Shown here in pieces: positions 27,563-49,421 of a stretch of DNA of 64,000 bases (within the stretch, counting starts at the first letter, position 1; each line of letters starts with the position of its first letter). Under the pieces are notes generated by a model that saw only the letters and a list, made by a program, of their open reading frames with translations, had not been told where the DNA came from and searched no databases. The DNA lies in assembly GCA_949282745.1 (NCBI GenBank), contig CASDQM010000042.1:322-64321 (forward strand), read 5' to 3'. The stretch is from an uncultured Sutterella sp. (GTDB lineage: Bacteria; Pseudomonadota; Gammaproteobacteria; Burkholderiales; Burkholderiaceae_F). Position numbers and translations under genes: made by a program.

Positions 27563-27908
27563 GGATGGAAACCTTTCAGTGGTTGTAGGGGTTCTTAGAA
27601 TGCCTGAATTGTGCGGAAAAGCTTTCCTTTAAGGTATCGGGGCTACCGTTTAGCCCTGCAGGGAATAGCGATCTTCTTAAAAGATGCGGAAGGCTTGCTG
27701 TCTAACGGGTTTGTCAGGTACGTACGGATGGCGTGGAACGCTTCCCAATTCGTGCGGGCGACGTTGCAATCCGTCCATTGAGGGCGAGGTAGGGGAGTGT
27801 CCGACGAAACCGCGTCGAACTGATCCTTTGTACTTTGAGAGCACGGAGGACGAAGGAAAGCTTCCGGGTGCCGAACGGCTAGAATGTCGGAACAAAGGAG
27901 GATTTTCC

Positions 27909-28748: not shown

Positions 28749-28790
28749 CGCGCCGCTTCGAGAGGCTCAAAAATCGGGAGGCGCCCCGCA

Positions 28791-28835
28791 ATGACGCGGC
28801 CCCCAATTCCGGGAGAGAGAATTGGGGGCCGCGTC
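28791..28835. repeat. Perfect 19-bp inverted repeat (7-nt loop) between convergent genes
   Basis: atgacgcggcccccaattc / gaattgggggccgcgtcat. Confidence 0.9.
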
Positions 28836-28881: not shown

Positions 28882-31425
28882 TCACTTCTTCGGCCGCTGC
28901 ACGAGCTGCGGACGATGGAGCGAGTCGATGATGGTGATCACCAGGCCGCGGATGTTGTTTTCCGTCGTGCGGTAGGGAGCGATGCGCATCGTGTAGAAGC
29001 GCTCGTTGTTCCCGACCACTTCGCGGTCGATCGGCGCGAGGTCCTTCAGAACGCACTTCGCGTCGGCGATGATGTCCTCCTCCGGGAAGGCGTGCGCGAA
29101 GATCTGCAGCGATCGGCCCACGTCCTGCTGCACGAGATCGAACTCGCGTCCCACGTACTCGGTGAACTTGCGGATGTTGAGCTTGCTGTCCACGAAGAGG
29201 ATCCCGATCATGGTCGAGGAGAGGAAGTTCGAGAGGTCGTTGTCCATCATCGTGAGTTCGTCGAGTTTCTGCTGATACTCGGAATTCACGGTGTAGAGCT
29301 CTTCGTTGACGGACTGGAGTTCCTCGTTCGAGCTCTGCAGTTCCTCGTTCGCCGTGAGAAGCTCTTCGTTGGCGGCCTGCAGTTCCTCATTCACGGTTTC
29401 GAGTTCCCCGATCGTCGAGCGCAGTTCGCTCTTGCTTCCCTGGAGCTCCTGTTCGAGGTCCATGATGCGCTGCGCCGCGGTGTGGTCGATGTCGTACTTC
29501 TCGGTCGTTCCGTCGAACTTGATGCTGTCGCGGTGTTCGAGAAAGAGGATCGCGATGAAGTCCTCGTCCTTTTCCGTCATGGAAATCGGCTGCACCGAAA
29601 GATCGATGATGCGGCGTCCCTTGGGAGTGTCGACGGCGATGTCCGTGTAGGTGACGGGGGCGTGCTCGTGCCGGCAGCGGTTGAGCGCCGTCGACGCGAT
29701 GAGGTGCAAATCCTTCGTAATCAGCGCAAAGAGATTGAACGTCGCCTTGCCCGGGGCGATGTTCACGTAGTCCGTGCTGTTGCCGAAGAAGTGAATGATG
29801 TCGTTGTTGCCGTTGACCACGACGGACGCCGGGAGGAAGCGCTCGAGGAAGTGAACGTAGATGTTCTCGAGTTGCTTGGGATCGTCCGAACGGGGAATCC
29901 CCGCGTGCGAGAACGTGACGGGGGGCAGAATGTTGTTGGGCACGTTGAAGACGGGCGGCTGCAGATCGTCGACCTTGCCGTCGGCGCAGTGGAGATAGAT
30001 CTTCTCCATGTTGGCGACGACCTGAAAGACGCTCGAGTATTCGCTCGCCGTCTCGCTTTTGCCGAGGAAGAGATAGCCGCCGTTCTTGAGCGCCGTGTGG
30101 AAGATGGCGAAGACGGCCTTCTGCAGAATCGGCTGGAAGTAAATCAGCACGTTTCGGCAGCTGATGAGGTCGAGCTTTCCGAAGGGAGGATCGGAAAACA
30201 TGTTGTGCGGCGCGAAGATGATCATCTTCCGGATTTCTTTCGAAATGTGGTACTGATCGTTCTTCTCGGTGAAGTACTTCGCGAGCCGCTCGGGCGTGAT
30301 GTCTTCCGAGACGCTTTCGGGGAAGACCCCCTTGCTCGCCTTTTCGATCGCCTGAGGATCGATGTCGGTCGCGAAGATCTTCACGTCGCGCTTCACGCCC
30401 GTCTCCTCCATCAGTTCCTTGAGGAGAATGGCGATCGAGTAGGCTTCTTCGCCCGTGGAGCATCCGGCCGACCAGATGCGGATCGGTTCGGTCGGATTGC
30501 CGTTGTGCAGAATCGACGTGAGAGCCGTTTCCTTGAGTTTTTCAAAGAAGTCGCTGTCGCGGAAAAAGCGCGTGACGCCGATGAGGATGTCCTTCATGAG
30601 GAGTTCGGCCTCGCCGGAGTTCTGCTCGAGCAGGTCGGCGTAGTGCTCCATCGTCGGACTCTTCGTCACGACCATGCGCCGTTCGATGCGGCGAAGCACG
30701 GTGTTGCGCTTGTAGTACGTGAAGTCGATTCCGCTCACGGTGCGCAGCATCGCGTAGATGCGGTCGAGCGTCGTGTTGGCGGAGGATTCGTCCGAAATCG
30801 CGGGAAGCGAGATGTTGTGGTAGTTCGCGAGATTGAGGAGCTCTTCGGCGAGTTCCTTCGGGGGCAGGACGAAGTCGGCGAGTCCCGTGTTGATGACCGA
30901 CCGGGGCATGCCGTCGAACTTTGCGCTCTTGGGGTCCTGCGCCATGACGATGCCGCCGCGCTCCTTGATCGTCTTGATCCCGTTGGTGCCGTCCGAGCCC
31001 GTGCCGGAGAGCACGATGCCGACGGCCCGGTCGCGCGCCTCGTTCGCGAGAGAGTCAAAGAAGATGTCGATCGGGTGATTGATCGCGCGGTGGTCGAAGT
31101 CGCTCAGAAGAAGATGTCCCGCCTTGATGGAGAGGTTCTTTTTGGGCGGAATGAGATACACCGCGTTGGGTTCGGCGGGCATGAGGTGCTCGGCCTGAAT
31201 CACGGGCATCGAGGTGTACTTCGCGAGAATCTCCGCCATGAGACTCTTGTAGTCGGGCGAGAGGTGCTGAATGATCACGAAGGTCATGTTGGCGTTGGCG
31301 GGCAGATTCGCAAAAAGGGTCTGCAGAGCCTCGAGTCCTCCCGCAGATGCGCCGATGCCGACGATGAATCGGGCCTCAGTCCGATACGGCGCGCCGGAAT
31401 GGTTCAATGCATTTTCGTTGGTCAT
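28882..31425 (-). CDS. CheB methylesterase - CheR methyltransferase - coiled coil - PAS fusion protein
   Basis: CheB triad S/H/D in GIGASAGG, IQHLSP and LSGTGSDG. CheR motifs IGVTRFFRD, IWSAGCSTGEEAYS, ATDID and CRNVLIYF. (xxNEEL)5 coiled coil and a C-terminal PAS-like domain. No kinase domain. Confidence 0.93.
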   Translation of the reverse strand: MTNENALNHSGAPYRTEARFIVGIGASAGGLEALQTLFANLPANANMTFVIIQHLSPDYKSLMAEILAKYTSMPVIQAEHLMPAEPNAVYLIPPKKNLSIKAGHLLLSDFDHRAINHPIDIFFDSLANEARDRAVGIVLSGTGSDGTNGIKTIKERGGIVMAQDPKSAKFDGMPRSVINTGLADFVLPPKELAEELLNLANYHNISLPAISDESSANTTLDRIYAMLRTVSGIDFTYYKRNTVLRRIERRMVVTKSPTMEHYADLLEQNSGEAELLMKDILIGVTRFFRDSDFFEKLKETALTSILHNGNPTEPIRIWSAGCSTGEEAYSIAILLKELMEETGVKRDVKIFATDIDPQAIEKASKGVFPESVSEDITPERLAKYFTEKNDQYHISKEIRKMIIFAPHNMFSDPPFGKLDLISCRNVLIYFQPILQKAVFAIFHTALKNGGYLFLGKSETASEYSSVFQVVANMEKIYLHCADGKVDDLQPPVFNVPNNILPPVTFSHAGIPRSDDPKQLENIYVHFLERFLPASVVVNGNNDIIHFFGNSTDYVNIAPGKATFNLFALITKDLHLIASTALNRCRHEHAPVTYTDIAVDTPKGRRIIDLSVQPISMTEKDEDFIAILFLEHRDSIKFDGTTEKYDIDHTAAQRIMDLEQELQGSKSELRSTIGELETVNEELQAANEELLTANEELQSSNEELQSVNEELYTVNSEYQQKLDELTMMDNDLSNFLSSTMIGILFVDSKLNIRKFTEYVGREFDLVQQDVGRSLQIFAHAFPEEDIIADAKCVLKDLAPIDREVVGNNERFYTMRIAPYRTTENNIRGLVITIIDSLHRPQLVQRPKK
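29297..29406 (-). repeat. Imperfect 21-bp tandem repeat encoding five NEEL heptads
   Basis: ETVNEELQAANEELLTANEELQSSNEELQSVNEEL. Confidence 0.85.
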
Positions 31426-31437
31426 GTTTCTCTCGCC

Positions 31438-34400
31438 TTATTCGCCGAAAGTGGATTGTGCATTGATTGTACCGTTTTGTAGGTATTTGGCCGCAAAATC
31501 TTCGGAGGGCAGGGGACGTTCGTAAAAGTTTCCCTGCGCCACAAAGCATTTTTTACTCAGCAGAACTTTCGCCTGCGCCTCGGTTTCGACGCCTTCGGCC
31601 ACGACGACGGCGTTTTGCCCGCGGCAGATGCCGACGATGCTTTCGACGAGCGAACGGCTCACGGGATTGCCGACGACGTCGAGAATGAGCGAGCGGTCGA
31701 GTTTGACGGTGTCGAAGCGCACCTTCGAGAACATCGAAAGGTTTGAGTAGCCCGTGCCGAAGTCGTCGAGCGCGAATCGGAAGCCCAGATCCCGATAGGG
31801 ACGCAGGGCGTGCTCGAGCGTGTCCTTTTCGACGGAGCAGGCGGTTTCGGTGATTTCGATTTCGATGAGGCTCGGGTCGATCCGGTCATAGTGGCTCAGC
31901 ACGGCGAGCACCGCGCCCGCGGCCGAGTGGTCGAACACGGTGAAGCGGGAGAAGTTTACGGCGACGGGAACGAGCGGCAGCCCCTGCGACTTCCAGACGT
32001 TCATCTGCCAGAGCACGCGCGAGAGGACGAAGAGGTCGAGTTCGCGCAGGGCCCCGCTCTTTTCCATCTGCGGGATGAAGTGCGCGGGCGAAACCGGGCT
32101 GCCCCTTTCGTCAAGTCCCCGCACGAGCGCTTCGGCGCCGCAGATGCGGCCGGTGCGAAGATCGAACTTGGGCTGGTAGTACACCGTGAAGTCGGCGATC
32201 GTCTTCGTGGAAAAGCGCGGAGCGCCCTTGGGCGTCGATGAGACGGCGGCGGCGAACGGACGGTCGGCCTGCGAGAGCATGATGGTGCGGGCCTCCTTCA
32301 GGAGGTTTTCGCCCGAGAAGATGCCCCTCGACCAGCTTGCACCCGTGGCGATCTGCCCGGGGAAGGTTCTTGCGGCAAAGCACTTCAGGTCGTCCGCGCG
32401 CTCAAAAAACGCCTCCTTCGTGACGTTCGGCGCAAGAAGGGCAAGCTCCATGTCGAAGAGGTGCACGAGCACGGCGTTCGCGAAACTGCGCCGCAGTTCT
32501 CCAGCGAGCGCCTGCATGATGGCGGCGAAGTGTTCCGTTCCGTTTTCGTTGGCGATCTTCAGGGCCTGCGGAACGGCGGCCACGAACGCCCCCATCGTCA
32601 CGCAGTGTTCCGAATTGAGGGAGGCGAGCGCGTCGTGACAGGCGGCGGGGCTCGTGAGGACGTTCGCCTCCGGGGCGAGCGGCAGAAGTTCGTCGCGGCT
32701 CGCCTTGAGCATGCGCTCGTTCAGGAGCGCAAGATAGGGGGCGAGGGCAACGGGAAGCGAGCGGTCGTCGTGCCGGACTTCAGGAGCTTCGATGACGAGG
32801 AGCACGGCCGGGGTGTTTGCAGACGTTCCGCAGGGAACGATCGCATAGGTCCAGGGCGCGCGGTCCGACGGGTCCGCGGCGTCGCCGCTTCGCTTGGCGC
32901 TTCGCACGAAGGCGGGCTTGCCCGAGGCGAGGGCGCGCGTGAGAAGCGGGAACTTCAGCATGGACCGCCCAAGGAGTGCGGGACGGATGGCGGGCTTTCC
33001 TTCGTTCGACCACTCGGTCGCCTCTTCGATCGTCCGGGCGTCTTCCGAGAGCCGCAGCGTGTAGACGCGGGCGGCGCCGTAGTGCCGTCCGAGGACCGCG
33101 AGGATCGCCTCGAGCGCCGCCAAGGGACGGGGCGTGCGGATCAAGAGGTCTAGACACGTGAGCAGGACCGCGTTTTCGTCGGGCGTAAGCGCCGAGGGGA
33201 TCGGCGAATCCGGGACGCGTTCCGCATCGGCTGTTCCGAGACGGCGAAGCGCGTCGGCGCGGGCCGCACATTCGTCGGGGCGAAGCTGCTCGACGGCGTC
33301 GTCGGGTTCCGGTGAAAGGTGTTCAAGGGCGTCGGCCGCGTCGCGCCAGAAGGCGTCGAGCCCAACGGGATCGAGTTCGCCGTGCGTGAAGACGGCCGTG
33401 AAGCGGACGTCCCGACCGGGAAAGAGTTCGAGCGCGCGGCGCACGAAGGCGAAGGCGTCTTCCAGGGCCTTCCGCGCCCGGGCGGACGTCGCGCAGTCGG
33501 GGAGAAAGACCTTGATCGAATCGGCCGATGCGCGGCTTACGATGCCGAGGGACTCGAAAAAGAGTCCGAAGGCCGAAGCGATGAAGGAAAGGGATTCCTC
33601 TTCTCTGCCGCAGGGCGCGAGCGCAGTGCGCACGAGCGCAAACGCCGAGGCGGTCGTCGCGTGGGCGAGGTGCGTTTCGGCGACGTGACGGTCTTCGCCG
33701 GGTTTGCAAAGTTCCTCTTCGTCGCGAAGAATCTTGGGGAGCCGCAGAAGGCGCGCCTCCGACCCGGCCTTTTCGGACCGGACAAGGTAGAAGTGCGCCG
33801 CAAGATGTCCGTTCTCGCCGGACGCAAGCAGTACGTAGAGCGTCGCCGCGCACAGACGGCTGTCGTTTTCGATGCGGACGAAGGGTTCGCACAGCCACCG
33901 CGGCGTGCCGTGAAACTCAGACGCCAAGCGTTCGGGCGCAAGGTTCTCCCGAAGAGCTCGCCGCGTCTCGTCGCCGAAGACGTTCCCGAGGCACTTTTCG
34001 AGGAGATCCGTGTAGCGAAGCGTCCGCACCGAAAGGTCGAAGGAATGCCCTTCGAGCCGGCAGGATTCGACGCGGTTCTCCGTGAGATCCGCGAGAGCGT
34101 AACCGTGAAGAGCCGGAAAGAGCGGCGGACACAGAGCCTGCGCCGTCAAATCCTGCGGGAGAGGCTGCTGCAGACCCAAGCCCGAGATCGTGCCGAAGAC
34201 GAGCCCCGACTCGGGATCGCTCTCGAAGTCGACGCGGCAGCGGTGATGGTTTCCGTCCGGCCGAAGCCGCAGGACGAAAAAGTCCGCGCCCCGCTTTTCG
34301 CCGCAGAGCACGCGGCGCGCAAAGGAACGAAAGCCTTCGGCGCTCTGCGGGTGCACGATTCCGCGTTCGATCAGAACGTCGGGGAAGGGACCGTCCGTGA

Positions 34401-34935
34401 CGACCGTCTCGAAGCCGTCGCCATCGGACCGCGCCAGCGAGAGAATCTGCCGCTTGCCGTCGAAAACCCAGGCGCGCAAAGCGCCGTATTCGAGCTCGAG
34501 TCGGCCGAGGGGAGACGAAAGGGAAGCAGCGTCGCGCGAGGTTTCCAGAAGGACGGCCGGCCCGTCGGAGCCCTGACGGAGGGGTTCGACCTTCACGAAG
34601 CGAAGGGATCGGACGCCCCCGTCCGCCGCGGCTGCGGTCTCTTGCAGAAGCGTGAAGCCCCGGCCGCTTTTCGCGGCCGAGAGAAGCTTCTGTGCGTACG
34701 GAACTCCGACGGCCTCGGGGAGACCGAGTCCCGTCACCGGACAGGGGGGCGGCAGATCTTCGGACACGCGGAGCATTCGGCGTGCCGCGTCGTTCAGGTA
34801 CTGCGCGTGGACTTCGTCCGAAGGCGAGACTTCGTAGAGGACGATGCCCGTTTGGGCCTCGGTCGGTCCGGCGGACCGGTTTCGGCCTTCGTCGTCGAAA
34901 GCCGCGTTGCGGGAAAGAACGAAGCTGGAAGTCAT
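31438..34935 (-). CDS. Large cytoplasmic c-di-GMP phosphodiesterase: PAS-like domains, degenerate GGDEF, GAF, degenerate GGDEF and EAL
   Basis: Intact EAL motifs YYQPK, AEALVR, AVNFS, IEITET, LDDFGTGYS, VKLD, AEGVET and AQG. GGDEF positions read ASADS and FDMEL. No TM segment seen. Upstream domain calls are tentative. Confidence 0.88.
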   Translation of the reverse strand: MTSSFVLSRNAAFDDEGRNRSAGPTEAQTGIVLYEVSPSDEVHAQYLNDAARRMLRVSEDLPPPCPVTGLGLPEAVGVPYAQKLLSAAKSGRGFTLLQETAAAADGGVRSLRFVKVEPLRQGSDGPAVLLETSRDAASLSSPLGRLELEYGALRAWVFDGKRQILSLARSDGDGFETVVTDGPFPDVLIERGIVHPQSAEGFRSFARRVLCGEKRGADFFVLRLRPDGNHHRCRVDFESDPESGLVFGTISGLGLQQPLPQDLTAQALCPPLFPALHGYALADLTENRVESCRLEGHSFDLSVRTLRYTDLLEKCLGNVFGDETRRALRENLAPERLASEFHGTPRWLCEPFVRIENDSRLCAATLYVLLASGENGHLAAHFYLVRSEKAGSEARLLRLPKILRDEEELCKPGEDRHVAETHLAHATTASAFALVRTALAPCGREEESLSFIASAFGLFFESLGIVSRASADSIKVFLPDCATSARARKALEDAFAFVRRALELFPGRDVRFTAVFTHGELDPVGLDAFWRDAADALEHLSPEPDDAVEQLRPDECAARADALRRLGTADAERVPDSPIPSALTPDENAVLLTCLDLLIRTPRPLAALEAILAVLGRHYGAARVYTLRLSEDARTIEEATEWSNEGKPAIRPALLGRSMLKFPLLTRALASGKPAFVRSAKRSGDAADPSDRAPWTYAIVPCGTSANTPAVLLVIEAPEVRHDDRSLPVALAPYLALLNERMLKASRDELLPLAPEANVLTSPAACHDALASLNSEHCVTMGAFVAAVPQALKIANENGTEHFAAIMQALAGELRRSFANAVLVHLFDMELALLAPNVTKEAFFERADDLKCFAARTFPGQIATGASWSRGIFSGENLLKEARTIMLSQADRPFAAAVSSTPKGAPRFSTKTIADFTVYYQPKFDLRTGRICGAEALVRGLDERGSPVSPAHFIPQMEKSGALRELDLFVLSRVLWQMNVWKSQGLPLVPVAVNFSRFTVFDHSAAGAVLAVLSHYDRIDPSLIEIEITETACSVEKDTLEHALRPYRDLGFRFALDDFGTGYSNLSMFSKVRFDTVKLDRSLILDVVGNPVSRSLVESIVGICRGQNAVVVAEGVETEAQAKVLLSKKCFVAQGNFYERPLPSEDFAAKYLQNGTINAQSTFGE

Positions 34936-34980: not shown

Positions 34981-36654
34981 TCATTCCGGATACTTGACCC
35001 ACTTGCCGGTGTTGAGCCGCACCCAGTGGGCGCCCGCAAAGCGCACGACGCTCGCGTTGGCGTTCTGCGATACGGGCCAGGTCTGAGGCAGATCCTTGAG
35101 GATCGCGTTGACCTCGGCCGAGACGTCCTCGCCGTGCGTACGGTAGACGCCGCTCACGGCCGTGCGGGCCATGAGTTCCGCGATCGCCAGATAGCTCGTC
35201 GGTTCTTCGACCGTGCGGGGAGCGCCGTCGAGCTTGAGTCCGAAGAATTTCACGAAGACGGGAACGTTTGTGATCTTCGGGCTCGGAATTTCGCGAAGCC
35301 GCGCCATCTGGATCTTGTCGCCGCGTACCGCCGCCCCGTGTTCGGGTACGACGATGAAGAGCACCGGCCGACCGCTCTTTTCGATGCGGTCCATGATGCG
35401 CTCGAGCTCGTCCAGGAGGGTCTTCGCAAGCGGTGCGTAGTCGAGCGGCTTCAAGGTTCCCGGAGCGCGGTTTCCGTCGTGGAGCGCCACGAGATTGAAG
35501 AACGAAACGGTTCTCGACGCGGGCTTCTCCGAGAGGTCCGAGAACCACTGATTGAAGACGTCGCCGTCGTCGTAGACGGGCGAGCCGTCGAAGGCTTCGT
35601 AGCGGCCGCGAAGCTTCGTGAGGTCGTTGAGGGCGGGGGTGAGTCCTGCGAGCTCACGAAGCGATTCAAGATAGTTGTCGAACCGTCCGTTGTGGTCGAG
35701 ATAGAGGCGGTTTTCCCATCCCGCCGCCGCAAAGCGGTTGAGGAGTTCGCACTGCGGACGGCGCTGGTCGTAGAGGGCCGAATGCGAGGGCTGTCCGCAG
35801 GCGGCGGTCAGCAGGCGCAGGGTCGCGGGTCCCGAGTACGACGTGGCCGAGGAAAAGTCCGTGAAGCGCACGTCGAACTTCGACCAGACGTCGTGGTCTT
35901 CGAGTCCCGTCGCGGCAAGGTCGTCGCGCGAGAGCGAGCAGATGTTGACGAGCGCGATGTCGAAGGCGCCCGAAACCGATTCGGGAACGGGATCGGACGG
36001 AAGACTCGCGACGCGGTTTTCCTCCTCCGTCAGGAAAGCGGTCAGCCAGCGGTCGATGTCGTCGCCCGTGCCGTTTGCGGGTTGCGGAGGCTGAAGCGGA
36101 CCGGCCGCCGTTTCGTTCTCGGGGGCGGCCGCTTTTTCGGCTGCGACGGCGACCGCCGCCTCGGGCGCCTTCGGCTCTTCCGGCAGCGCCCAAGTGACGA
36201 GCTGCGGGAAGGCCGTGACGACGAGACCGATCACGGTGAGGGTCGAAAAGCGGATCCAGCGGCGCAGAAAGAGCCACGCGACGATCCCGGCCGCGAGCCA
36301 CGCGACGATGACGGGATTCACGGCGTTGACGACGAAGTCGATCAGAAACGACGCGGAAAAGTCCGCGAGGTTGTGCGCGTTCGCGCGGATCGCCTCGGGT
36401 CCGGGCAGCCAGCTCTCGTGCCAGAGAAGCGCAACGGCCGCAAGGGCGCCGGCAAGGTTGCGCAAAAGGTCGAGCGCGCGCGTGCCGATCGGAAGGACGA
36501 CCGCGGCGAAGAGGAGCGCGTTGTAGGCGGGCTCGAGATTCAGGTAGCCGAAGTAGGCGAGTGCGAACTTCGCCAGAAAGTACACGTTGAACCAGCCCGC
36601 GCCCTTCCAGACCGTTTCAAGCGGGGCGTCCTGGGAAATCTTGGGGCTCGTCAT
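34981..36654 (-). CDS. bcsG: Cellulose phosphoethanolamine transferase BcsG
   Basis: N-terminal TM block (WFNVYFLAKFALAYFGYLN), NICSLS, SATSYSGPA (catalytic Ser), HDGNR, VPEHGA and LREIPSPKIT. Confidence 0.95.
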   Translation of the reverse strand: MTSPKISQDAPLETVWKGAGWFNVYFLAKFALAYFGYLNLEPAYNALLFAAVVLPIGTRALDLLRNLAGALAAVALLWHESWLPGPEAIRANAHNLADFSASFLIDFVVNAVNPVIVAWLAAGIVAWLFLRRWIRFSTLTVIGLVVTAFPQLVTWALPEEPKAPEAAVAVAAEKAAAPENETAAGPLQPPQPANGTGDDIDRWLTAFLTEEENRVASLPSDPVPESVSGAFDIALVNICSLSRDDLAATGLEDHDVWSKFDVRFTDFSSATSYSGPATLRLLTAACGQPSHSALYDQRRPQCELLNRFAAAGWENRLYLDHNGRFDNYLESLRELAGLTPALNDLTKLRGRYEAFDGSPVYDDGDVFNQWFSDLSEKPASRTVSFFNLVALHDGNRAPGTLKPLDYAPLAKTLLDELERIMDRIEKSGRPVLFIVVPEHGAAVRGDKIQMARLREIPSPKITNVPVFVKFFGLKLDGAPRTVEEPTSYLAIAELMARTAVSGVYRTHGEDVSAEVNAILKDLPQTWPVSQNANASVVRFAGAHWVRLNTGKWVKYPE

Positions 36655-36866
36655 TTGTCGTCGGATGCTTTCGTCGCAATGGAGTCGGGACCAAGGTCAA
36701 GCAAGTCGCTCAATTTATACTCTCTCGAGACGGCGCGGCGGCCGACAAAGAGCCAGCGAAGCCGCGCGGCAAGGCGGGAGAGCCGCGGCGCGAAAAACCA
36801 CCCCGCGGCGAAGGCGAGGATAACCGCAATCGCAAGGACGTGGGGCTCAAAGAGAATCGGGGGCAT
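36651..36866 (-). CDS. bcsF: Small single-TM cellulose biosynthesis protein BcsF
   Basis: 71 aa with one TM followed by a basic stretch. Lies between bcsE and bcsG with a 4-nt overlap. Confidence 0.75.
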   Translation of the reverse strand: MPPILFEPHVLAIAVILAFAAGWFFAPRLSRLAARLRWLFVGRRAVSREYKLSDLLDLGPDSIATKASDDK

Positions 36867-36869
36867 GGG

Positions 36870-38465
36870 TCACTTCTTCCAGGGAAAAACGATCGGCGTC
36901 GGCACGATCGGGTTGGGACGCGGCGTTGCGTCGTCGGCCTTTGAGGCGTCTGCGCACTGGGCGAAGGTTCGCCGCGCGGATTCGTCCGTCGGACTTTCGC
37001 GAAAGGTTTCGATCGCCCGCAGCTCCGACAGAATGTCGGCCGTTTCGAAGACGAGGGAGTAGTGCGCGAAGAGTTCCGCGGGCTCCACGGCAAAGCAGCG
37101 CTCGAGCGCCAACTCTACGTTGGAGGGGTGGGAGCCGTTCAGAAACACCGCGCAGCGCCGTCCCACCGCGCAGGCGATGTCGCCCGCGCGCTTGGGCTGG
37201 AAATGCGCGAGACAGTCTTCGGGGTTGAGCATCTCGTCGGGCTCGAGCGTGACGAGCGTCCCTCGGTTGAGGGGAACGAAATTCGTCTCGCTGAAGGTGA
37301 CGAGCCGCCGCACGAGGTCGGTGAAGTCGTTCCGGTCGAGCACGCCCCTCGCGTGCGCCGCGAGAACGAAGGCGAGCGACGCCTCGAAGTCCGCGGGCAG
37401 CTCCCGCGAAAAGACGGCGTGCCGCAGATCGACCAGGGTCATGCCGATGTATTCGATCCCGGCCGAGGCCTCGAAGACGACGTTCGCGCCGCAGCCGAGC
37501 AAAAAGGCGAGCGACGCGGCGCGCACGGGCACCTTGTCGGGAACGACCGCGAGCTTCAGGTGCCGTCCCCGCGTTTTTCTGAGCGTGTAGAGCGCCCGCG
37601 CGACGGGGGCGAGGTCCTGCGTGCCTTCGAGAGAAAAGACGAGGGTCGCAGCGCTCGCGCGGCTTCCGATGCGCGCAAGCGCCTCGTTGTCGGGAACCGT
37701 CCTGAGGTTGAGGAGTCCGCTCGTGCGTTCGTTGAGTTTTGCCGAGGCGCTGTAGACGATGTCCGCGTCCTCGAGCACGGCGGTGTCCTCTTCGAACCCT
37801 TCGGGCGCGGCAAAGCCCGCGCCGTCGCGGCGCAGCGTGACTTCGAACTGTCCCGTGAAGCGGTGCAGACCGTACCAGAAGCGCGCCTGCCAGAGACATT
37901 CGTCCTTCTTCTTGGTGAGCTGTGCGAGGCCTCCGAGGCGGTGCCGGAAGGAGAGGAGCCGATAGAGGAACTCTTCGTCCCCGGGGCCGCTTCCGTAGAA
38001 GACGAGGAGAACGATGTGGCCCTGTTGCTCCGCGGCCGCGGCGATGCGCGCGAGCCGGTCCGTGAGGGCGCGCTCGTCGCCGAGCGCGACGGACGCGGCC
38101 CGACAGAGGAGAAGGATCGTCTGCGGTTCGTCAAAGAGGTTCGCGAGCGCCTGCGCCAGACCTTCGAGCGGCCAGACGTAGTAGGGAAAGCGAAGCCTTT
38201 TGATGCGGCGAACGCTCCAGGAGAGAGGCTCCCGGAGTTCGTCCGCATGCTCTCGGAAGAATTCCCGAACCTTTTTTCTTTCATCGTCGTCGCGAAGCAC
38301 GAAAAGAATCGGAGGGCGTTCGCCCTCACGGAGGCGACACCCGAAGAGAAGCGGCATGGCCTCTTCGATCGACGTCGCGCACACGACGCCCACCGAACCA
38401 GGGTTGAGCGTGCGGCGGCTGTCCGCGAGTCCCCGCAGGGGAAGTTCCAGACTGCGATCAGACAT
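36870..38465 (-). CDS. bcsE: c-di-GMP-binding protein BcsE (GIL domain); start re-called at MSDRSL
   Basis: VARALYTLRKTRGRHLKL, LLGCGANVV, and the RxGD motif RAGD followed by AVFLNG. Adjacent to bcsF/G. Confidence 0.88.
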   Translation of the reverse strand: MSDRSLELPLRGLADSRRTLNPGSVGVVCATSIEEAMPLLFGCRLREGERPPILFVLRDDDERKKVREFFREHADELREPLSWSVRRIKRLRFPYYVWPLEGLAQALANLFDEPQTILLLCRAASVALGDERALTDRLARIAAAAEQQGHIVLLVFYGSGPGDEEFLYRLLSFRHRLGGLAQLTKKKDECLWQARFWYGLHRFTGQFEVTLRRDGAGFAAPEGFEEDTAVLEDADIVYSASAKLNERTSGLLNLRTVPDNEALARIGSRASAATLVFSLEGTQDLAPVARALYTLRKTRGRHLKLAVVPDKVPVRAASLAFLLGCGANVVFEASAGIEYIGMTLVDLRHAVFSRELPADFEASLAFVLAAHARGVLDRNDFTDLVRRLVTFSETNFVPLNRGTLVTLEPDEMLNPEDCLAHFQPKRAGDIACAVGRRCAVFLNGSHPSNVELALERCFAVEPAELFAHYSLVFETADILSELRAIETFRESPTDESARRTFAQCADASKADDATPRPNPIVPTPIVFPWKK

Positions 38466-40140
38466 GTTTCGACTCCATCGTGTCGGCAAAGGGCGAGACG
38501 GTCTTGGCGTGCTCTTCTTCGTAGCGTACGGTGAGATTGCGTCCCAGGCACTTAGCGCGGTAGAGGGCGAGGTCGGCCTCGCGCACGAGCGTGAGGATGT
38601 CCTTTTCGGCCCAGTGCTTCGTCGAGGAGGAAATGCCGATCGAAACGGAGAGCGGTTGGGGCGCTTCGCCCTTTTCGCTCACGGACGCGTCCGCGAGCGA
38701 AATTCTGCGCATGCGGTGACGGATGCGTTCGGCGACGTTGTAGGCGGTCCTGGCCGTGACGCCCGTGAGCACCATGCAGAATTCCTCGCCCCCGTAGCGG
38801 TAGACGACGTCGTTTTGCGCAATGCACGTGCGGATTTGCTCGCCGAAGCGCTTGAGGATTTGGTCGCCGAAGAGGTGGCCGCGCGTATCGTTCACCCGCT
38901 TGAAGTGATCAAGGTCGATCATGATCACGGCGGAATTCCCCGGCACGCCCCTCGTTTTCTCCACGATCGCCTCGAAGGCCCGACGGTTGGCGAGTCCCGT
39001 CAAAGGATCCTTGTGGGATTCGTTGAGGAGCTCGTCGTATTGCGTGGCGAGAAGGTTGAGCGACGCGCGTTTCTGATGGAGCATCTTGCAGAAATGCATG
39101 AGCCACTCGATGACGTCGTTGATTTCCGCGATGTACGAGCCCGCAGGCATCTTCGGGAGCTTGTTGGTGTCAAGGAATCGGCGCATTTCTTCGCGCAGTT
39201 CGCCCAAGGGGCGAAGCACCAGATAGGACGTGATCGCGATCGCGGCCGCCGTCGCCAGGGTGATGAAGAGGGCCAGGGAGAAGGAGCGGAAGAGCCGATC
39301 GTTGAACTGCGTGATCTGACCGATGAGTCCCATGCGGTCCGACGTTTCCAACTTTGCATAGACGTGACTGAGGTTGCGTGCGTCCTCGTTCATCGCGTCG
39401 GCCTGGGCCAGAAACGCCGTACGCGAGGCGGCGAGCGCGTCGAGCTTGGCGGAGAGCGACTGCGGAAGTTCGCCCAGATTCGCGCAGTACTCGAGAAACG
39501 CCGTGCGTTCTTGGCTCTGAAGCGGTGCATGCGCGGACGTGCAGAGTTCGCGCGCGGCCCTGCCGAGCAGTTCGAGATGCCGACGGTGCGGCGCCTCGTC
39601 GTCGAGATGCTGCACGATCGGGAGTCTGAAGTCGTTCAGGATCCGCGCCGACGAGCCCGGAAGACCCGCGGCTACGCCCGCCGCAGCGAGGAGGTCCCGG
39701 TGGAACGCGTTGAACCCGGCGTTCACCCCGTCGCGGCCGCTCTCGTAGTCCTGACGAAGCGTCCAGGTCCGTTGCAGGCTTTCGATCAGCCGCTCCGTCA
39801 GAATCTTGGCCTCGTCGTGCTGCTCGAAGACCGTTTCCGTGAGAAGACCCCAGGTGTAGATGTAGGCGGTGCGGGCGCGCTGCGTGACGCTCGCGTATAC
39901 GAAGTCCTGCAAAGACTTGCTCAGATAGTGCAGATTGGTGGAGTTGCGCTGCGCGAGCATGATGTCCTTGAGGGTCTGCTCCTCCAATTCATACGCAAAC
40001 GCCTGAATCCGTCCGCTCATGTTGACGCCCAGGGCGAGGCTGCCGAACATCACGAGGAGAATCGCCGCCATCACCGGAAGCAGCATCCGCCGGATGGGAA
40101 CGGCCTTTTTGCCCGTGGACGTTATGCTGAAGCTTTCCAT
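38458..40140 (-). CDS. Membrane diguanylate cyclase (TM - periplasmic helical sensor - TM - HAMP-like - GGDEF)
   Basis: DPLTGLANRR, IDLDHFKRVNDTRGHLFGD, RYGGEEF, SIGIS and ADLALYRAK. The I-site position reads AQND rather than RxxD. Confidence 0.93.
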   Translation of the reverse strand: MESFSITSTGKKAVPIRRMLLPVMAAILLVMFGSLALGVNMSGRIQAFAYELEEQTLKDIMLAQRNSTNLHYLSKSLQDFVYASVTQRARTAYIYTWGLLTETVFEQHDEAKILTERLIESLQRTWTLRQDYESGRDGVNAGFNAFHRDLLAAAGVAAGLPGSSARILNDFRLPIVQHLDDEAPHRRHLELLGRAARELCTSAHAPLQSQERTAFLEYCANLGELPQSLSAKLDALAASRTAFLAQADAMNEDARNLSHVYAKLETSDRMGLIGQITQFNDRLFRSFSLALFITLATAAAIAITSYLVLRPLGELREEMRRFLDTNKLPKMPAGSYIAEINDVIEWLMHFCKMLHQKRASLNLLATQYDELLNESHKDPLTGLANRRAFEAIVEKTRGVPGNSAVIMIDLDHFKRVNDTRGHLFGDQILKRFGEQIRTCIAQNDVVYRYGGEEFCMVLTGVTARTAYNVAERIRHRMRRISLADASVSEKGEAPQPLSVSIGISSSTKHWAEKDILTLVREADLALYRAKCLGRNLTVRYEEEHAKTVSPFADTMESKHV

Positions 40141-40152
40141 CGTTTTGAGACC

Positions 40153-40947
40153 TTAAAAACTGAAGAAAGGGAAGAAGCGGATGATGAGATCCTGAAATTC
40201 CCCGTTCGACTGTAGCGTGTGGAGCGTCCGGTTGACGCCGTCGATCAGGGCATGGTCTTGAAGCTTGGCCGCGACGCGGCACTCGGTGAGCCGGTCGTCC
40301 ACGTCCGCGGCGCGGCCTCCGATGAAAAGCGCTGCGCCCTGCGGGCCGGTCAGAAGGTTGTAGCCCGGCACGCCGTCGAGAAAAATCATGTTGACTTCGC
40401 CCGCCGTCAGCGCGTCGACGAGCGCTTCGAAGGACGGATACGCCCGCCTGCGCGCGCCCTGCGGCACATATCGATCTTCAATGTAGGCGTTCTGAAGCTT
40501 TCCCTCCTGCACGCCGATCACGAGTTCCGGAATCCGGTCGTCCGTGAAGTGCTCGAAGCGCTTCTGCGTGGTGATGAAGAGACTTCCCGAACGGTAGTAG
40601 GGCTCCGAAAAGAGAAACCGGCGGCCGCGCTCTTTCGTTTCGGCGAGTCCCGCGACCACGAGGTCGAGCCGTCCCGCCTGAAGAGCGGGGAGAAGCGACG
40701 GGAAGGGGAGCGCCCGAATGCGGCAGTCGCGGCGAAGCATGCGGCAGACCTCACGCGCGAATTCCACGTCAAAGCCCGTGAGTTCACCCCGGACGTCCAC
40801 GTAGGAGAACGGCTCCACGTTGGCCTCCACGCCGATATCGAGCGGTTCGATCATGACCGGGGCCGTCGGTTGAGCGTCCCGCTCGACGAGGAACCACCCC
40901 GCGAGCAGAAGAATTGCGGCCGAACCCGTGAGAAGAATCTTTTTCAT
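40153..40947 (-). CDS. Polar amino-acid periplasmic substrate-binding protein (family 3), with no cognate permease or ATPase nearby
   Basis: EPFSY...GELTGFDVEFAR, LLPALQAGRLDLV, ETKER and FSEPYY. Confidence 0.9.
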   Translation of the reverse strand: MKKILLTGSAAILLLAGWFLVERDAQPTAPVMIEPLDIGVEANVEPFSYVDVRGELTGFDVEFAREVCRMLRRDCRIRALPFPSLLPALQAGRLDLVVAGLAETKERGRRFLFSEPYYRSGSLFITTQKRFEHFTDDRIPELVIGVQEGKLQNAYIEDRYVPQGARRRAYPSFEALVDALTAGEVNMIFLDGVPGYNLLTGPQGAALFIGGRAADVDDRLTECRVAAKLQDHALIDGVNRTLHTLQSNGEFQDLIIRFFPFFSF

Positions 40948-40963
40948 GAAGAAACTCCTTTCT

Positions 40964-42565
40964 TCAAGCCGCAGTCTCGTTTTGAACGTCGACGGCCGCG
41001 GTCAGCAAGAGAGCGCGCATTTCCTCGGCGGTCGAGGGCTTCGCAAAGCAGTAGCCCTGCAGCTGATCGGGGGAAAGTCCCTCGAGCCGCGCGTACATTT
41101 CCTCGTCCTGAATCCCCTCGAGACAGACGACGAGACCGAGTTCCTTGAAGGCCTTGATGAGACGGGCGAGGAAGAGCCGGCGCTTCTCGTCGTAGAGACA
41201 GCCGAGCGCGACTTCCCGCGAGAGCTTCACCATGTCGCAGGGGATGCTCAGAAGGAAGGCGAGCGAGTTGTAGCACGTCCCGAAGTCGTCGATCGCGGTC
41301 TGCATGCCGACGGCTCTGCACTTTTCGACGAGCTCCTGAAGGTCCTGCTGCGGAATGTTTTCGCCGGTTTCCACTAATTCGATGACGATGCGCCCGAACG
41401 GAATGCCGTTGCGCTCGGCGGCCGTGCGGAGAAAAAGAAAGAGGCTCCGGTCGACCGTGTGCGAGGGATTGAGGTTCAGGTTGAAGGTGAAGCCGTCGGG
41501 AACGACGTCGAGAACTTTCGACGCCAACTCGAGCGAGCGCCCGAAGACCCAGTGCGTCAGGGGGACGGCGAGCGTCGACTTCTCGAGCAGCCGCACGAAG
41601 CGGTCCGGTCCGAAGCCGCGGTCGGTTTTGAAGCGGAGGAGAAACTCCGCCCCGGTGTAGCGGCGCGTGAAACGGTCGACGAGGGGCTGCATGAGAAGCT
41701 TGAAGCCGTCGAAGTCGTTGAGACAGGCATGGGTCGTGAGAAGAATTTCCCGCAGCAGGAATTTCTCGTGTCCGTGCTGTGCCGGGTAGAGATCGGCGAA
41801 GGCCAGCCAGAAGGCCCGGCGCTTTTCCAATGCTTCGGCACTCGATTCGGCCCCCTCCGCAAAGATGAGCTGCGACTTCACGCTGTCGACGGCGCGGTGC
41901 TCGCGCAAAACGGCGTCGAGAAGCCGGTTGGCGCGCGTCTCGACGTCAAAGCACGTCTCCGGCGTCGAGCAGATGATCGTGTCGGAGTCGAGCTGTTCGA
42001 TCATGACGCCGGGGCTTGCCTTTTCGCGCAGCGACTCGATGATCCCGGCGGTGAAGAGCCCGAGGGAGTCGGTCGCGCGGAAGTTCGAGGTGAGCCGCAG
42101 CGCAACGATCGTGTGCGAAGCGGGCGCCGCCGCAAGACGCGCGAGTTTTTCGACTTCGTCTTTGGAGAAATCCGAAAACCCGAGGAGTTCGGAAAAGATC
42201 CGCGCGAACGCATAGAACTCGACCGTGCCCGAAAAAAGCGTGCTGTCGCCCGCGTCGCTTCGGTAGGATTTGGCGCGGATTCGGCACCAGACGACCTGCT
42301 TGTTGATGCAAAGCCGCACAAAAAGGTCGCGGCTCGCGCATTCGCGCCGGAATTCCTCGAAATGGGCGCGAAGCACTTCACGGTCGCACTCGTCCGCAAG
42401 CAGTGCGTCGAACACTTCTTCGAGGCGGCAGGGATGTGCGGGATCCGTGCCGAGTGCCCGTGCGAGGTCCGACGAGAGATGAAAAAGCCCGCTCTTGAGT
42501 TCGCCGAAGAAAAGGTAGGGCGATTCAAAATCGGTTTTGGAGCCGGCGGCGTGTGAAAGGAGCAT
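40964..42565 (-). CDS. EAL-domain protein with N-terminal PAS-like and degenerate GGDEF regions (start re-called at MLLSHA)
   Basis: MQPLV, AEFLLR, NLNLNP, IELVET, IDDFGTCYNS, VKL, LEGIQ and LQGY. Several positions deviate from consensus. Confidence 0.85.
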   Translation of the reverse strand: MLLSHAAGSKTDFESPYLFFGELKSGLFHLSSDLARALGTDPAHPCRLEEVFDALLADECDREVLRAHFEEFRRECASRDLFVRLCINKQVVWCRIRAKSYRSDAGDSTLFSGTVEFYAFARIFSELLGFSDFSKDEVEKLARLAAAPASHTIVALRLTSNFRATDSLGLFTAGIIESLREKASPGVMIEQLDSDTIICSTPETCFDVETRANRLLDAVLREHRAVDSVKSQLIFAEGAESSAEALEKRRAFWLAFADLYPAQHGHEKFLLREILLTTHACLNDFDGFKLLMQPLVDRFTRRYTGAEFLLRFKTDRGFGPDRFVRLLEKSTLAVPLTHWVFGRSLELASKVLDVVPDGFTFNLNLNPSHTVDRSLFLFLRTAAERNGIPFGRIVIELVETGENIPQQDLQELVEKCRAVGMQTAIDDFGTCYNSLAFLLSIPCDMVKLSREVALGCLYDEKRRLFLARLIKAFKELGLVVCLEGIQDEEMYARLEGLSPDQLQGYCFAKPSTAEEMRALLLTAAVDVQNETAA

Positions 42566-42615
42566 GTAGCAGTTCCTTGGTGGAGCTGTGAGTCTGACGG
42601 TGAGGCGCGATGCGC

Positions 42616-47042: not shown

Positions 47043-47054
47043 CTTCGACCTCTC

Positions 47055-49361: not shown

Positions 49362-49421
49362 TTTCAACACAATCAAAGTTTTCTTGTCGTTTTCGTTGCC
49401 GGCCTTCAGGCCGTTCGCAAA

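What the first reader, a model, noticed from the sequence alone, without database searches (positions are those of the whole stretch)
28882..31425. CheB-CheR-PAS fusion with no receptor or kinase, as the last gene of a cellulose operon
Seen: intact CheB triad and CheR SAM motifs, then five NEEL heptads and a PAS domain. There is no histidine kinase, and no MCP, cheA, cheW or flagellar gene in the window. It starts 12 nt after the large EAL gene. Known: CheR and CheB methylate and demethylate Glu pairs in receptor coiled coils; CheB/CheR fusions exist but their substrates are poorly defined. Inference: it may methylate its own NEEL coiled coil or a partner such as the adjacent phosphodiesterase, acting as an adaptation or memory switch for c-di-GMP and cellulose rather than for chemotaxis.
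Basis: partly seen in the sequence, partly recalled or inferred. Interest (0 to 1): 0.68.

Follow-up and report, generated by a model that had tools for sequence, protein, structure and literature searches.

The report
Receptor-less CheB-CheR sensor paired with phosphodiesterase
A gut Sutterella with no chemotaxis receptors, kinase or flagella keeps a fused chemotaxis-type methylating/demethylating enzyme under strong selection, always next to a large c-di-GMP-degrading enzyme, so the pair probably forms a chemotaxis-independent methylation switch on biofilm signalling; its methylation target is unproven.

Summary
The gene lies on the minus strand at 28882-31425 and encodes 847 aa: CheB (S27/H54/D145), CheR, a PAS domain, a 92-residue helix with five NEEL heptads, and PAS_10. 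It starts 12 nt after a 1165-aa PAS3-GAF-GGDEF*-EAL phosphodiesterase. It is the last gene of bcsQABZC-pde-sbp-dgc-bcsE(F)G-pde-cheBR, and a hairpin follows it.

The host is a gut Sutterella. Its genome has no MCP, CheW/CheA or FliG, and neither do 12 sampled congeners.

The conserved unit is the phosphodiesterase + CheBR-PAS pair, not the cellulose operon. The pair is adjacent in all 14 full-length orthologous loci, from Sutterella, Succinivibrionaceae and Desulfovibrio piger/Mailhella. Their surroundings are otherwise unrelated, and only two of them show bcs genes beside the pair.

The enzymes are under strong purifying selection (dN/dS 0.05). The NEEL helix is the most conserved part of the whole family, and it is the only MCP-like Glu-pair array in the genome. 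The partner has none.

Best reading: an MCP-independent methylation module, probably writing on its own helix, that tunes the partner phosphodiesterase. The protein belongs to the large, annotated but unstudied CheB/CheR-fusion family. No methylation, binding or expression data exist.

The parts
28882..31425 (-). cheBR-PAS gene, 847 aa: CheB, CheR, PAS-A, NEEL helix, PAS_10; no REC domain and no kinase
   Evidence: ORF and translation. Pfam. One-stretch alignment over residues 17-835 to 150 family representatives.
30838..31362 (-). CheB methylesterase catalytic domain (res 22-196), triad S27/H54/D145, with no N-terminal receiver domain
   Evidence: Pfam 8e-60. Alignment to 1A2O, 1CHD and 3SFT. 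Foldseek 3SFT TM 0.85. The triad is invariant in 7 orthologues.
30010..30765 (-). CheR_N plus CheR SAM-dependent methyltransferase (res 221-472)
   Evidence: Pfam 3e-60. Alignment to 5FTW and 5Y4R; 1AF7 also matched. R245/R246/R249/R250 and the SAM-motif residues are at least 90% conserved in 144 sequences.
29536..29880 (-). PAS-A, a poorly conserved PAS fold (res 516-630); candidate input domain
   Evidence: AF2 secondary structure. Tandem-PAS Foldseek hits to DosP, PpsR and LOV-PAS. Only 1% of its columns are at least 90% conserved.
29215..29490 (-). Single 92-residue helix (res 646-737) linking PAS-A to PAS_10
   Evidence: AF2 predicts one continuous helix H646-737, with 10-residue block mean pLDDT 56-79. 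dN/dS is 0.01-0.055.
29287..29391 (-). Five NEEL heptads (res 679-713: NEELQAA NEELLTA NEELQSS NEELQSV NEELYTV); candidate methyl-accepting sites
   Evidence: It is the only such array in the six-frame genome. Apart from one acidic stretch on contig C24, it is also the only double [EQ][EQ]xx[AST][ASTV] site. Mean frequency of the commonest residue in 144 sequences: N 0.99, E 0.98, E 0.99, L 0.97, against 0.72-0.87 at the other three heptad positions.
28924..29235 (-). PAS_10 domain (res 731-834); C-terminal, presumed output or interaction domain
   Evidence: Pfam 1e-21. AF2 10-residue block mean pLDDT 70-88 over residues 741-830.
28770..28835 (-). Terminator-like region: a 17-bp perfect hairpin (GACGCGGCCCCCAATTC / GAATTGGGGGCCGCGTC), then CGGGGCGCCTCCCG followed by ATTTTT
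   Evidence: Read directly from the sequence. The consensus scan found the second hairpin, but terminator-like sites are not enriched over shuffles.
31438..34935 (-). Partner phosphodiesterase, 1165 aa: three PAS folds, an alpha/beta domain, GAF, degenerate GGDEF, and an EAL domain with intact EALVR, EITE, DDFGTG, KLD and EGVE motifs
   Evidence: Pfam EAL 3e-57. Motifs. AF2 model. Best structural match is DosP 9CMF, E=8e-30. Orthologues sit directly upstream of cheBR in all 14 full-length loci.
34981..38489 (-). bcsE (36870-38489), a 71-aa bcsF-like ORF (36651-36866) and bcsG (34981-36654)
   Evidence: Pfam CBP_BcsE 2e-69. Pfam CBP_BcsG 8e-156. The bcsF call rests on size, position and a hydrophobic N-terminal stretch (probable membrane helix), with no Pfam hit.
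38458..42688 (-). c-di-GMP trio: EAL protein (40964-42688; EFL variant), periplasmic SBP_3 (40153-40947), and a GGEEF cyclase with a hydrophobic N-terminal segment (38458-40140; AQND in place of the RxxD I-site)
   Evidence: Pfam. Motifs. The same trio precedes the pair in two other genomes.
42616..52936 (-). bcsQ, bcsA (GT2 + PilZ), bcsB, bcsZ (GH8), bcsC
   Evidence: Pfam.

Best explanation
CheBR-PAS is a chemoreceptor-independent protein-glutamate methylation module. It works as one unit with the phosphodiesterase encoded immediately upstream.

Shown:
- Both enzyme domains are intact and under strong purifying selection in hosts that have no MCP, CheA or CheW.
- The two genes are inseparable across horizontally transferred copies in three lineages.
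- The genome's only array of MCP-like Glu-pair sites is the five NEEL heptads of the protein's own 92-residue helix, between two PAS domains.

Inferred:
- The tethered CheR methylates the Glu pairs of that helix and the tethered, receiver-less CheB demethylates them, most likely across a coiled-coil dimer.
- A signal sensed by the variable PAS-A domain shifts the helix between states that favour one enzyme or the other, as ligand occupancy does in chemoreceptors.
- The resulting methylation level is passed through PAS_10 to the DosP-like multi-PAS phosphodiesterase by protein contact. This sets c-di-GMP hydrolysis with a slow, adapting (memory-like) component.
- In this Sutterella the pair sits at the end of a pEtN-cellulose operon that carries its own cyclase, BcsE and PilZ-BcsA. 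Its local output is therefore most likely the c-di-GMP pool that gates cellulose synthesis. That wiring is specific to this lineage.
For: No chemotaxis machinery. The own genome has 0 MCPsignal, 0 CheW and 0 FliG. All 13 sampled genomes of the genus have 0 MCP, as do the other Sutterella-family carriers.

Enzymes retained.
- S27/H54/D145 and the CheR motif residues are invariant in 7 orthologues.
- dN/dS against other carriers is 0.10-0.17 for CheB, 0.05-0.17 for CheR and 0.01-0.055 for the helix.
- Against a second Sutterella, CheBR has dN/dS 0.05, bcsG 0.14 and the partner 0.29.

Pair conservation.
- The partner lies directly upstream in 14 of 14 full-length loci, from a 4-nt overlap to a 58-nt gap.
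- The loci come from Sutterella, Succinivibrionaceae (locus GC 38-56%) and D. piger/Mailhella, with unrelated flanks.
- The partner's sensor region occurs in 2 of 151 family genomes, exactly the 2 with full-length CheBR.
- A 47%-identical relative (P0129) has GGDEF-EAL fused to the same module.

Helix as substrate.
- The NEEL core has 73% of its columns at least 90% conserved, against 27% for CheB and 22% for CheR.
- The N-E-E-L positions are conserved at 0.97-0.99, more than the other three heptad positions.
- The sequence fits EE-x-x-[AST]-[ASV], like MCP sites.
- It is the only such array in the genome and in every fetched locus.
- The basic CheR_N helix residues are conserved.

Precedent. 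RsbM methylates the signalling helix of the kinase RsbK, a non-MCP substrate, in vitro (PMC4574943).
Against: There is no direct evidence of methylation, of binding between the two proteins, or of any effect on c-di-GMP or cellulose.

Extreme conservation of the helix could reflect a structural or docking role rather than substrate recognition.

Glutamine almost never replaces the Glu pairs (at most 2 of 144), unlike many MCP sites.

AF2 confidence for the domain arrangement is low (pTM 0.37), so whether the active sites can reach the helix is untested.

The partner evolves very fast (30-38% identity where CheBR keeps 66-81%), which is unusual for a tight complex.

The Succinivibrionaceae carriers do have 6-8 MCPs, so use of MCPs in those hosts is not excluded.

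The own genome is only 92.5% complete.
Confidence: 0.5

Rival explanations
1. The substrate is the partner phosphodiesterase, or another operon protein such as the cyclase, BcsE or BcsA. CheR/CheB would methylate Glu residues on it directly, and the NEEL helix would serve only as a dimerisation or docking rod.
For: Strict adjacency and frequent translational coupling of the two genes. Perfect co-occurrence of the partner with CheBR.
Against: The 7 partner orthologues have no NEEL-like or QNxEL helix and no conserved [EQ][EQ]xx[AST][ASTV] site. Outside the EAL domain the 12-sequence alignment has no invariant adjacent Glu-Glu pair. The longest partner helix in the model is 25 residues. bcs proteins are not found beside the pair in the loci outside the two closely related Sutterella.
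Confidence: 0.15
2. It is an ordinary adaptation enzyme for chemoreceptors that were missed in an incomplete assembly, or that are used in the donor lineage. In Sutterella it would then be a passenger gene of a transferred island.
For: The Succinivibrionaceae carriers have 6-8 MCPs. The region is accessory: its 90% clusters hold 18-24 members, against 433-473 for neighbouring core genes. Other genomes of the genus lack the gene. A Duodenibacillus copy is truncated.
Against: None of the 13 genomes of the genus has an MCP, nor do three further Sutterella-family carriers. dN/dS is 0.05 between two MCP-less Sutterella. The protein has no REC domain to receive CheA phosphate. The conserved pairing is with a phosphodiesterase rather than with che genes.
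Confidence: 0.07
3. The enzyme domains have no catalytic role. The protein would act only as a PAS sensor or scaffold that binds and regulates the phosphodiesterase.
For: Outputs in this family are usually carried by further PAS domains. Of 41 sampled relatives, 29 have neither a kinase ATPase domain (HATPase_c) nor GGDEF/EAL.
Against: The catalytic triad and the SAM-site residues are invariant or at least 90% conserved in 144 diverse members. dN/dS of the catalytic domains is 0.05-0.17.
Confidence: 0.1

Closest known systems
CheB/CheR fusion proteins ('two-component system, chemotaxis family, CheB/CheR fusion protein'; I recall the KEGG entry as K13924); Pfam architecture CheB_methylest-CheR_N-CheR-PAS_10
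   Same: The whole 17-835 module aligns in one stretch at 40-51% identity to 150 cluster representatives. It has the same NEEL helix and PAS_10. A public source names the D. piger orthologue this way.
   Different: This is a minimal member. It ends after PAS_10, which is true of only 10 of 144 representatives at 900 aa or shorter. Most relatives carry further PAS domains, and 12 of 41 carry a kinase ATPase domain (HATPase_c). Here the output is a separate, strictly linked phosphodiesterase. I found no functional study of the family in the searched library; it gets passing mentions only.
CheR/CheB adaptation of methyl-accepting chemotaxis proteins (E. coli/Salmonella Tar and Tsr; PDB 1AF7, 1A2O)
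   Same: The same two catalytic folds and residues. Glu pairs with heptad spacing on a long helix, resembling the EExxA(S/T) sites (the consensus is quoted from my own knowledge).
   Different: The genome has no MCP, CheA or CheW. CheB lacks its receiver domain. The enzymes are covalently tethered to the candidate substrate helix. The output is c-di-GMP hydrolysis rather than a flagellar motor.
RsbM-RsbK of Bacillus cereus (methylatable signalling helix; PMC4574943)
   Same: A methyltransferase encoded next to a sensor methylates a signalling helix of a non-MCP protein and changes its output; this was shown in vitro with 14C-SAM. That RsbM is CheR-type is from my own knowledge.
   Different: RsbM is a separate protein with no paired esterase. 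Its substrate helix sits in a hybrid histidine kinase, and the output is sigma-B. Here both writer and eraser are fused to the helix, and the output enzyme is a phosphodiesterase in trans.
Wsp chemosensory system of Pseudomonas (WspA-F, WspR)
   Same: It links CheR/CheB-type methylation (WspC/WspF) to c-di-GMP and biofilm matrix (my own knowledge).
   Different: Wsp needs an MCP (WspA), CheW proteins and a CheA (WspE) that phosphorylates a cyclase. None of these exists here, and the output here is a phosphodiesterase.
DosP (PdeO) of E. coli, a PAS-PAS-GGDEF*-EAL phosphodiesterase (PDB 9CMF)
   Same: It is the best structural match of the partner (E=8e-30). It is also matched by the PAS-helix-PAS part of CheBR. 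Both have a degenerate GGDEF before an EAL domain whose catalytic motifs are intact in the partner.
   Different: The partner has three PAS folds, an extra alpha/beta domain and a GAF domain. No haem-binding evidence was sought. It is paired with CheBR-PAS rather than with a DosC-type cyclase (the DosC pairing is from my own knowledge).

Membership tests
CheB/CheR fusion family (CheB_methylest-CheR_N-CheR-NEEL helix-PAS_10) | CheB catalytic domain with a Ser-His-Asp triad at the N-terminus | tested here: met
   Pfam 8e-60. S27/H54/D145 align to S164/H190/D286 of 1A2O.
CheB/CheR fusion family (CheB_methylest-CheR_N-CheR-NEEL helix-PAS_10) | CheR_N plus the CheR SAM-binding domain following CheB in one polypeptide | tested here: met
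   Pfam 2e-13 and 3e-60. Alignment to 5FTW and 5Y4R.
CheB/CheR fusion family (CheB_methylest-CheR_N-CheR-NEEL helix-PAS_10) | Near-invariant NEEL heptad helix followed by PAS_10 | tested here: met
   Five NEEL heptads. PAS_10 at 1e-21. Conservation measured in 144 members.
CheB/CheR fusion family (CheB_methylest-CheR_N-CheR-NEEL helix-PAS_10) | Glutamate methylation and demethylation activity on a defined substrate | not testable with these tools
   I found no biochemical report for any member in the searched library.
Canonical chemotaxis CheB | N-terminal receiver domain phosphorylated by CheA | tested here: not met
   The protein starts directly with the catalytic domain. Pfam finds no Response_reg. 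The NCBIfam CheB models score 129-133 bits against cut-offs of 293-342. The genome has no CheW or CheA.
Canonical chemotaxis CheR | MCP substrates encoded in the genome | tested here: not met
   0 MCPsignal in the own genome and in all 13 genomes of the genus. The NCBIfam CheR equivalog scores 125 bits against a cut-off of 435.
Wsp-like (ACF) chemosensory pathway controlling c-di-GMP | MCP + CheW + CheA core with a phosphorylated output regulator | tested here: not met
   The genome has no MCPsignal and no CheW or CheA.
RsbK/RsbM-type methylatable signalling helix | A CheR-type methyltransferase genetically linked to a non-MCP sensor that bears a Glu-containing signalling helix | tested here: met
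   Here the methyltransferase is fused to the helix. The helix lies between two PAS domains.
RsbK/RsbM-type methylatable signalling helix | Demonstrated methylation of the helix that changes the output | not testable with these tools
   This needs SAM labelling or mass spectrometry.
E. coli-like (pEtN) cellulose secretion operon | bcsQ, A, B, Z, C plus bcsE, F, G | tested here: met
   Pfam hits for BcsQ, A, B, Z (GH8), C, E and G. BcsF is called only by size and position and has no Pfam hit.

The most novel reading that the evidence does not exclude
The phosphodiesterase + CheBR-PAS pair would be a self-contained, horizontally mobile adaptation cassette for c-di-GMP. The enzyme fusion would write and erase methyl groups on its own five-site NEEL helix, with no chemoreceptor, CheA or CheW. 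This would give a second-messenger phosphodiesterase the integral-feedback memory so far known only from chemotaxis arrays. If true for this minimal two-gene form, it would name the long-missing substrate of the whole family: about 14,700 50%-identity clusters match at E<=1e-30 (a count that probably includes single-domain CheB and CheR proteins).
Probability: 0.3. Interest if true: 0.85.

Novelty: new variant of a known kind. Interest (0 to 1): 0.62.

Why it matters
CheB/CheR fusions are among the commonest unstudied signalling proteins, and what they methylate is not known. This case strips the problem to a minimum. There are two genes and no kinase. The hosts have no chemoreceptors at all, so the substrate must be the protein itself or its partner. 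There is also a simple read-out: c-di-GMP level, or Congo-red/calcofluor staining of cellulose.

The result also shows that methylation-based adaptation hardware has been coupled to c-di-GMP turnover, and that the cassette has moved between gut Betaproteobacteria, Gammaproteobacteria and Desulfovibrionaceae. A cultivable carrier, Desulfovibrio piger, is available for genetics.

Tried and rejected
1. I first took the host for a Desulfovibrionaceae, because the nearest named homologues were D. piger and Mailhella. This was wrong. Records with organism titles, and earlier notes on the same genome, show a Sutterella. All 'family' searches therefore refer to Sutterella's family.

2. The '350-aa unknown' ORF at 36847-37899 is a wrong-frame artefact. 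The real gene there is bcsE, at 36870-38489.

3. I looked for a NEEL-tagged partner helix, a lead from earlier notes on other genomes. It is absent from this partner and from its orthologues.

4. I tested cellulose linkage as the conserved feature and rejected it.

5. The single FHIPEP hit in the genome raised the possibility of flagella. Its neighbours look like an injectisome and FliG is absent.

6. The terminator-like hit inside the bcsF region (36801-36819) is probably chance, because terminator-like sites are not enriched over shuffles.

7. Literature searches for the fusion, for PAS_10 and for NEEL strings gave only passing mentions.

9. The AF2 models have low global confidence (pTM 0.37). 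I used them only for domain boundaries.
Full report
**What is there**

The finding's coordinates are exact, but the gene is on the minus strand. It encodes 847 aa.
- Pfam finds CheB_methylest (22-196), CheR_N (221-269), CheR (284-472) and PAS_10 (731-834), and no kinase domain.
- Against solved CheB structures, S27, H54 and D145 align with the S164/H190/D286 triad of 1A2O.
- The CheR SAM-site motifs align with 5FTW and 5Y4R.
- An AlphaFold model (31-sequence alignment, mean pLDDT 65, pTM 0.37) was used only for domain boundaries. It adds a second PAS fold at 516-630 and shows that residues 646-737 form one uninterrupted 92-residue helix.
- Foldseek matches the N-terminus to CheB 3SFT (TM 0.85). 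It matches the PAS-helix-PAS part to tandem-PAS proteins such as DosP, PpsR N-Q-PAS1 and LOV-PAS kinases.
- Five perfect NEEL heptads occupy residues 679-713.

**Operon**

All of these genes lie on the minus strand, in this order:
- bcsQ, bcsA (GT2 + PilZ), bcsB, bcsZ and bcsC
- an EAL protein
- a periplasmic SBP_3
- a GGEEF cyclase with a hydrophobic N-terminal segment
- bcsE (36870-38489; the 350-aa ORF in another frame is an artefact)
- a 71-aa bcsF-like ORF
- bcsG
- the 1165-aa EAL protein
- cheBR

The EAL gene's stop and the cheBR start are 12 nt apart. A 17-bp perfect hairpin and a second GC hairpin with a T-run follow the cheBR stop. Next come a convergent gene of unknown function and, further downstream on the minus strand, a molybdopterin oxidoreductase gene.

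The 1165-aa protein has intact EAL catalytic motifs and no GGDEF motif. Its model shows three PAS folds, an alpha/beta domain, GAF, a degenerate GGDEF and EAL. DosP is its best structural match.

**Host and chemotaxis genes**

The genome (2.5 Mb, 62% GC, 92.5% complete) has no MCP signalling domain, no CheW domain (so no CheA either) and no FliG. Its one FHIPEP gene sits among injectisome-like genes.

Titled records show that the host is a gut Sutterella, as earlier notes on this genome said. All 13 sampled genomes of the genus lack MCPs. So do the other Sutterella-family carriers of the gene.

**What is conserved around it**

Close orthologues of CheBR-PAS (66-98% identity) were found in:
- a second Sutterella
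- 'Sutterella sp. HRGM_2132'
- five Succinivibrionaceae / Ca. Avisuccinivibrio genomes, with locus GC of 38-56%
- Desulfovibrio piger, Mailhella and two further metagenomic lineages at 66-69% identity

In all 14 full-length loci a homologue of the large phosphodiesterase lies immediately upstream. The spacing runs from a 4-nt overlap to a 58-nt gap.

The surroundings are otherwise unrelated. In D. piger the pair is bracketed by transposase genes. Only the window and the second, closely related Sutterella locus show bcs genes beside the pair. Another species of the genus has the bcs operon, with its EAL-SBP-GGDEF trio and bcsE/G, but without the pair. Two genomes have trio + pair without bcs.

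In a 151-genome sample of the host's family:
- The partner's sensor region occurs in exactly the two genomes that have full-length CheBR-PAS.
- A Duodenibacillus has a truncated CheBR and no partner.

Cluster sizes mark the region as accessory: 18-24 members, against 433-473 for nearby core genes. The conserved functional unit is therefore the phosphodiesterase + CheBR-PAS pair, which has moved horizontally among gut anaerobes. Its attachment to a cellulose operon is a local arrangement.

**Selection**

| Comparison | Element | dN/dS |
|---|---|---|
| Two MCP-less Sutterella | CheBR-PAS | 0.05 |
| | bcsG | 0.14 |
| | partner, overall | 0.29 |
| | partner, 100-codon windows over the sensor part | 0.25-0.58 |
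| | partner, 100-codon windows over the GGDEF*-EAL end | 0.05-0.22 |
| More distant carriers | CheB | 0.10-0.17 |
| | CheR | 0.05-0.17 |
| | helix | 0.01-0.055 |

The catalytic residues are invariant in all seven orthologues compared. The enzymes are therefore in use where no chemoreceptor exists.

**The family**

A search of 1.84 billion cluster representatives gave 80,847 matches at E<=1e-3 and 14,717 at E<=1e-30. These totals probably include single-domain CheB and CheR proteins. The best 150 all cover residues 17-835 in one stretch at 40-51% identity.
- Ten of 144 are 900 aa or shorter, like this one; the rest are longer.
- Of 41 sampled, 31 have extra PAS domains, 12 have a kinase ATPase domain (HATPase_c), and one (P0129, 47% identical) has GGDEF-EAL fused directly. 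That fusion independently links the module to c-di-GMP enzymes.
- The share of columns at least 90% conserved is 27% in CheB, 22% in CheR, 1% in PAS-A and 7% in PAS_10, but 73% in the NEEL core.
- Within the heptads, N, E, E and L are conserved at 0.97-0.99 and the other three positions at 0.72-0.87. That pattern fits recognition better than mere packing.

**Substrate question**

A six-frame scan finds the NEEL array once in the genome. A looser scan looked for two MCP-type sites seven residues apart. It finds only this helix and one acidic stretch elsewhere.

The partner and six of its orthologues have no such helix and no conserved site. Its model has no long helix. In every fetched locus the only array lies inside CheBR.

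The sequence EEL(Q/L)(A/T/S)(A/S/V) resembles the chemoreceptor EExxA(S/T) consensus, which I quote from my own knowledge. The basic residues of the CheR_N helix are conserved. A precedent exists for methylation of a non-MCP signalling helix: RsbM methylates RsbK in vitro (PMC4574943). I found no functional report on CheB/CheR fusions or on the NEEL motif in the searched library.

**Most likely mechanism (inferred)**

- PAS-A senses a signal.
- The helix switches between states that the tethered CheR or the receiver-less CheB prefers.
- The net methylation of up to ten Glu residues per chain stores the recent signal history.
- PAS_10 passes this state to the multi-PAS phosphodiesterase by contact and so tunes c-di-GMP hydrolysis.
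- In this Sutterella that would bear on the cyclase/BcsE/PilZ-controlled pEtN-cellulose machine encoded in the same operon.

My confidence by step:

| Step | Confidence |
|---|---|
| Independence from MCPs | about 0.9 |
| Functional coupling to the phosphodiesterase | about 0.8 |
| The protein's own helix as substrate | about 0.5 |
| Control of cellulose in this host | about 0.4 |

**Verdict**

The protein is a member of a known but unstudied family, in a minimal form with a phosphodiesterase as output. It offers a clean test system for the family's missing substrate.

Noticed in passing
window 31438-34935 vs L047:2383-5988: Between two Sutterella strains CheBR is 98% identical, but the partner phosphodiesterase only 77-80% (bcsG 92%). 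The divergence is concentrated in the PAS/GAF sensor part (dN/dS 0.25-0.58), so the sensor is diversifying fast next to a frozen CheBR.
   Followed up: partly
L003:4769-13969 (D. piger contig): In D. piger the pair is bracketed by two DDE_Tnp_1 transposase genes, like a composite transposon. The partner there has a run of about 26 asparagines between its N-terminal GGDEF and the PAS region. In another assembly (L004) the gene is split at about that point into 188-aa and 1164-aa ORFs.
   Followed up: no
L054 / G091:C18:28599-30311: A Duodenibacillus genome carries only residues 271-840 of the CheBR-PAS homologue (81% identical). It has no CheB domain and no partner gene upstream, so it looks like a decaying remnant.
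   Followed up: partly
own genome, contig C40:7601-17050 (outside the window): A single FHIPEP gene has neighbours resembling an injectisome-type secretion system (a small chaperone-like ORF and a 1086-aa ORF). FliG is absent from the genome.
   Followed up: partly
own genome, contig C15:26844-34369 (outside the window): A second cellulose locus (bcsA, bcsB, bcsZ, bcsG; 37-50% identical to the window's copies). Most congeners have only this type, so the window's bcs operon is an extra, accessory copy, shared with one other sampled species of the genus.
   Followed up: partly
window 36847-37899 (-) vs 36870-38489 (-): The Arg-rich 350-aa ORF is a wrong-frame artefact of the high GC content. The real gene is bcsE in another frame. 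A 71-aa ORF with a hydrophobic N-terminal stretch (36651-36866) sits where bcsF would be and is 82% conserved in the second Sutterella, but has no Pfam hit.
   Followed up: yes
window 40964-42688 (-): The 574-aa EAL protein has EFLLR in place of EALxR, and IDDFGTCY, LEGIQ and VKLS variants of the catalytic motifs. Its activity is uncertain and it might be a c-di-GMP receptor. Its listed start overlaps bcsC by 72 nt, so the true start is probably further downstream.
   Followed up: no
window 27684-28748 (+): A convergent 354-aa ORF with an internal signal-peptide-like segment (MRPIQAVSGVLAALSLAASAATQA) has no Pfam or NCBIfam match. It lies between cheBR and a molybdopterin oxidoreductase gene.
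   Followed up: no
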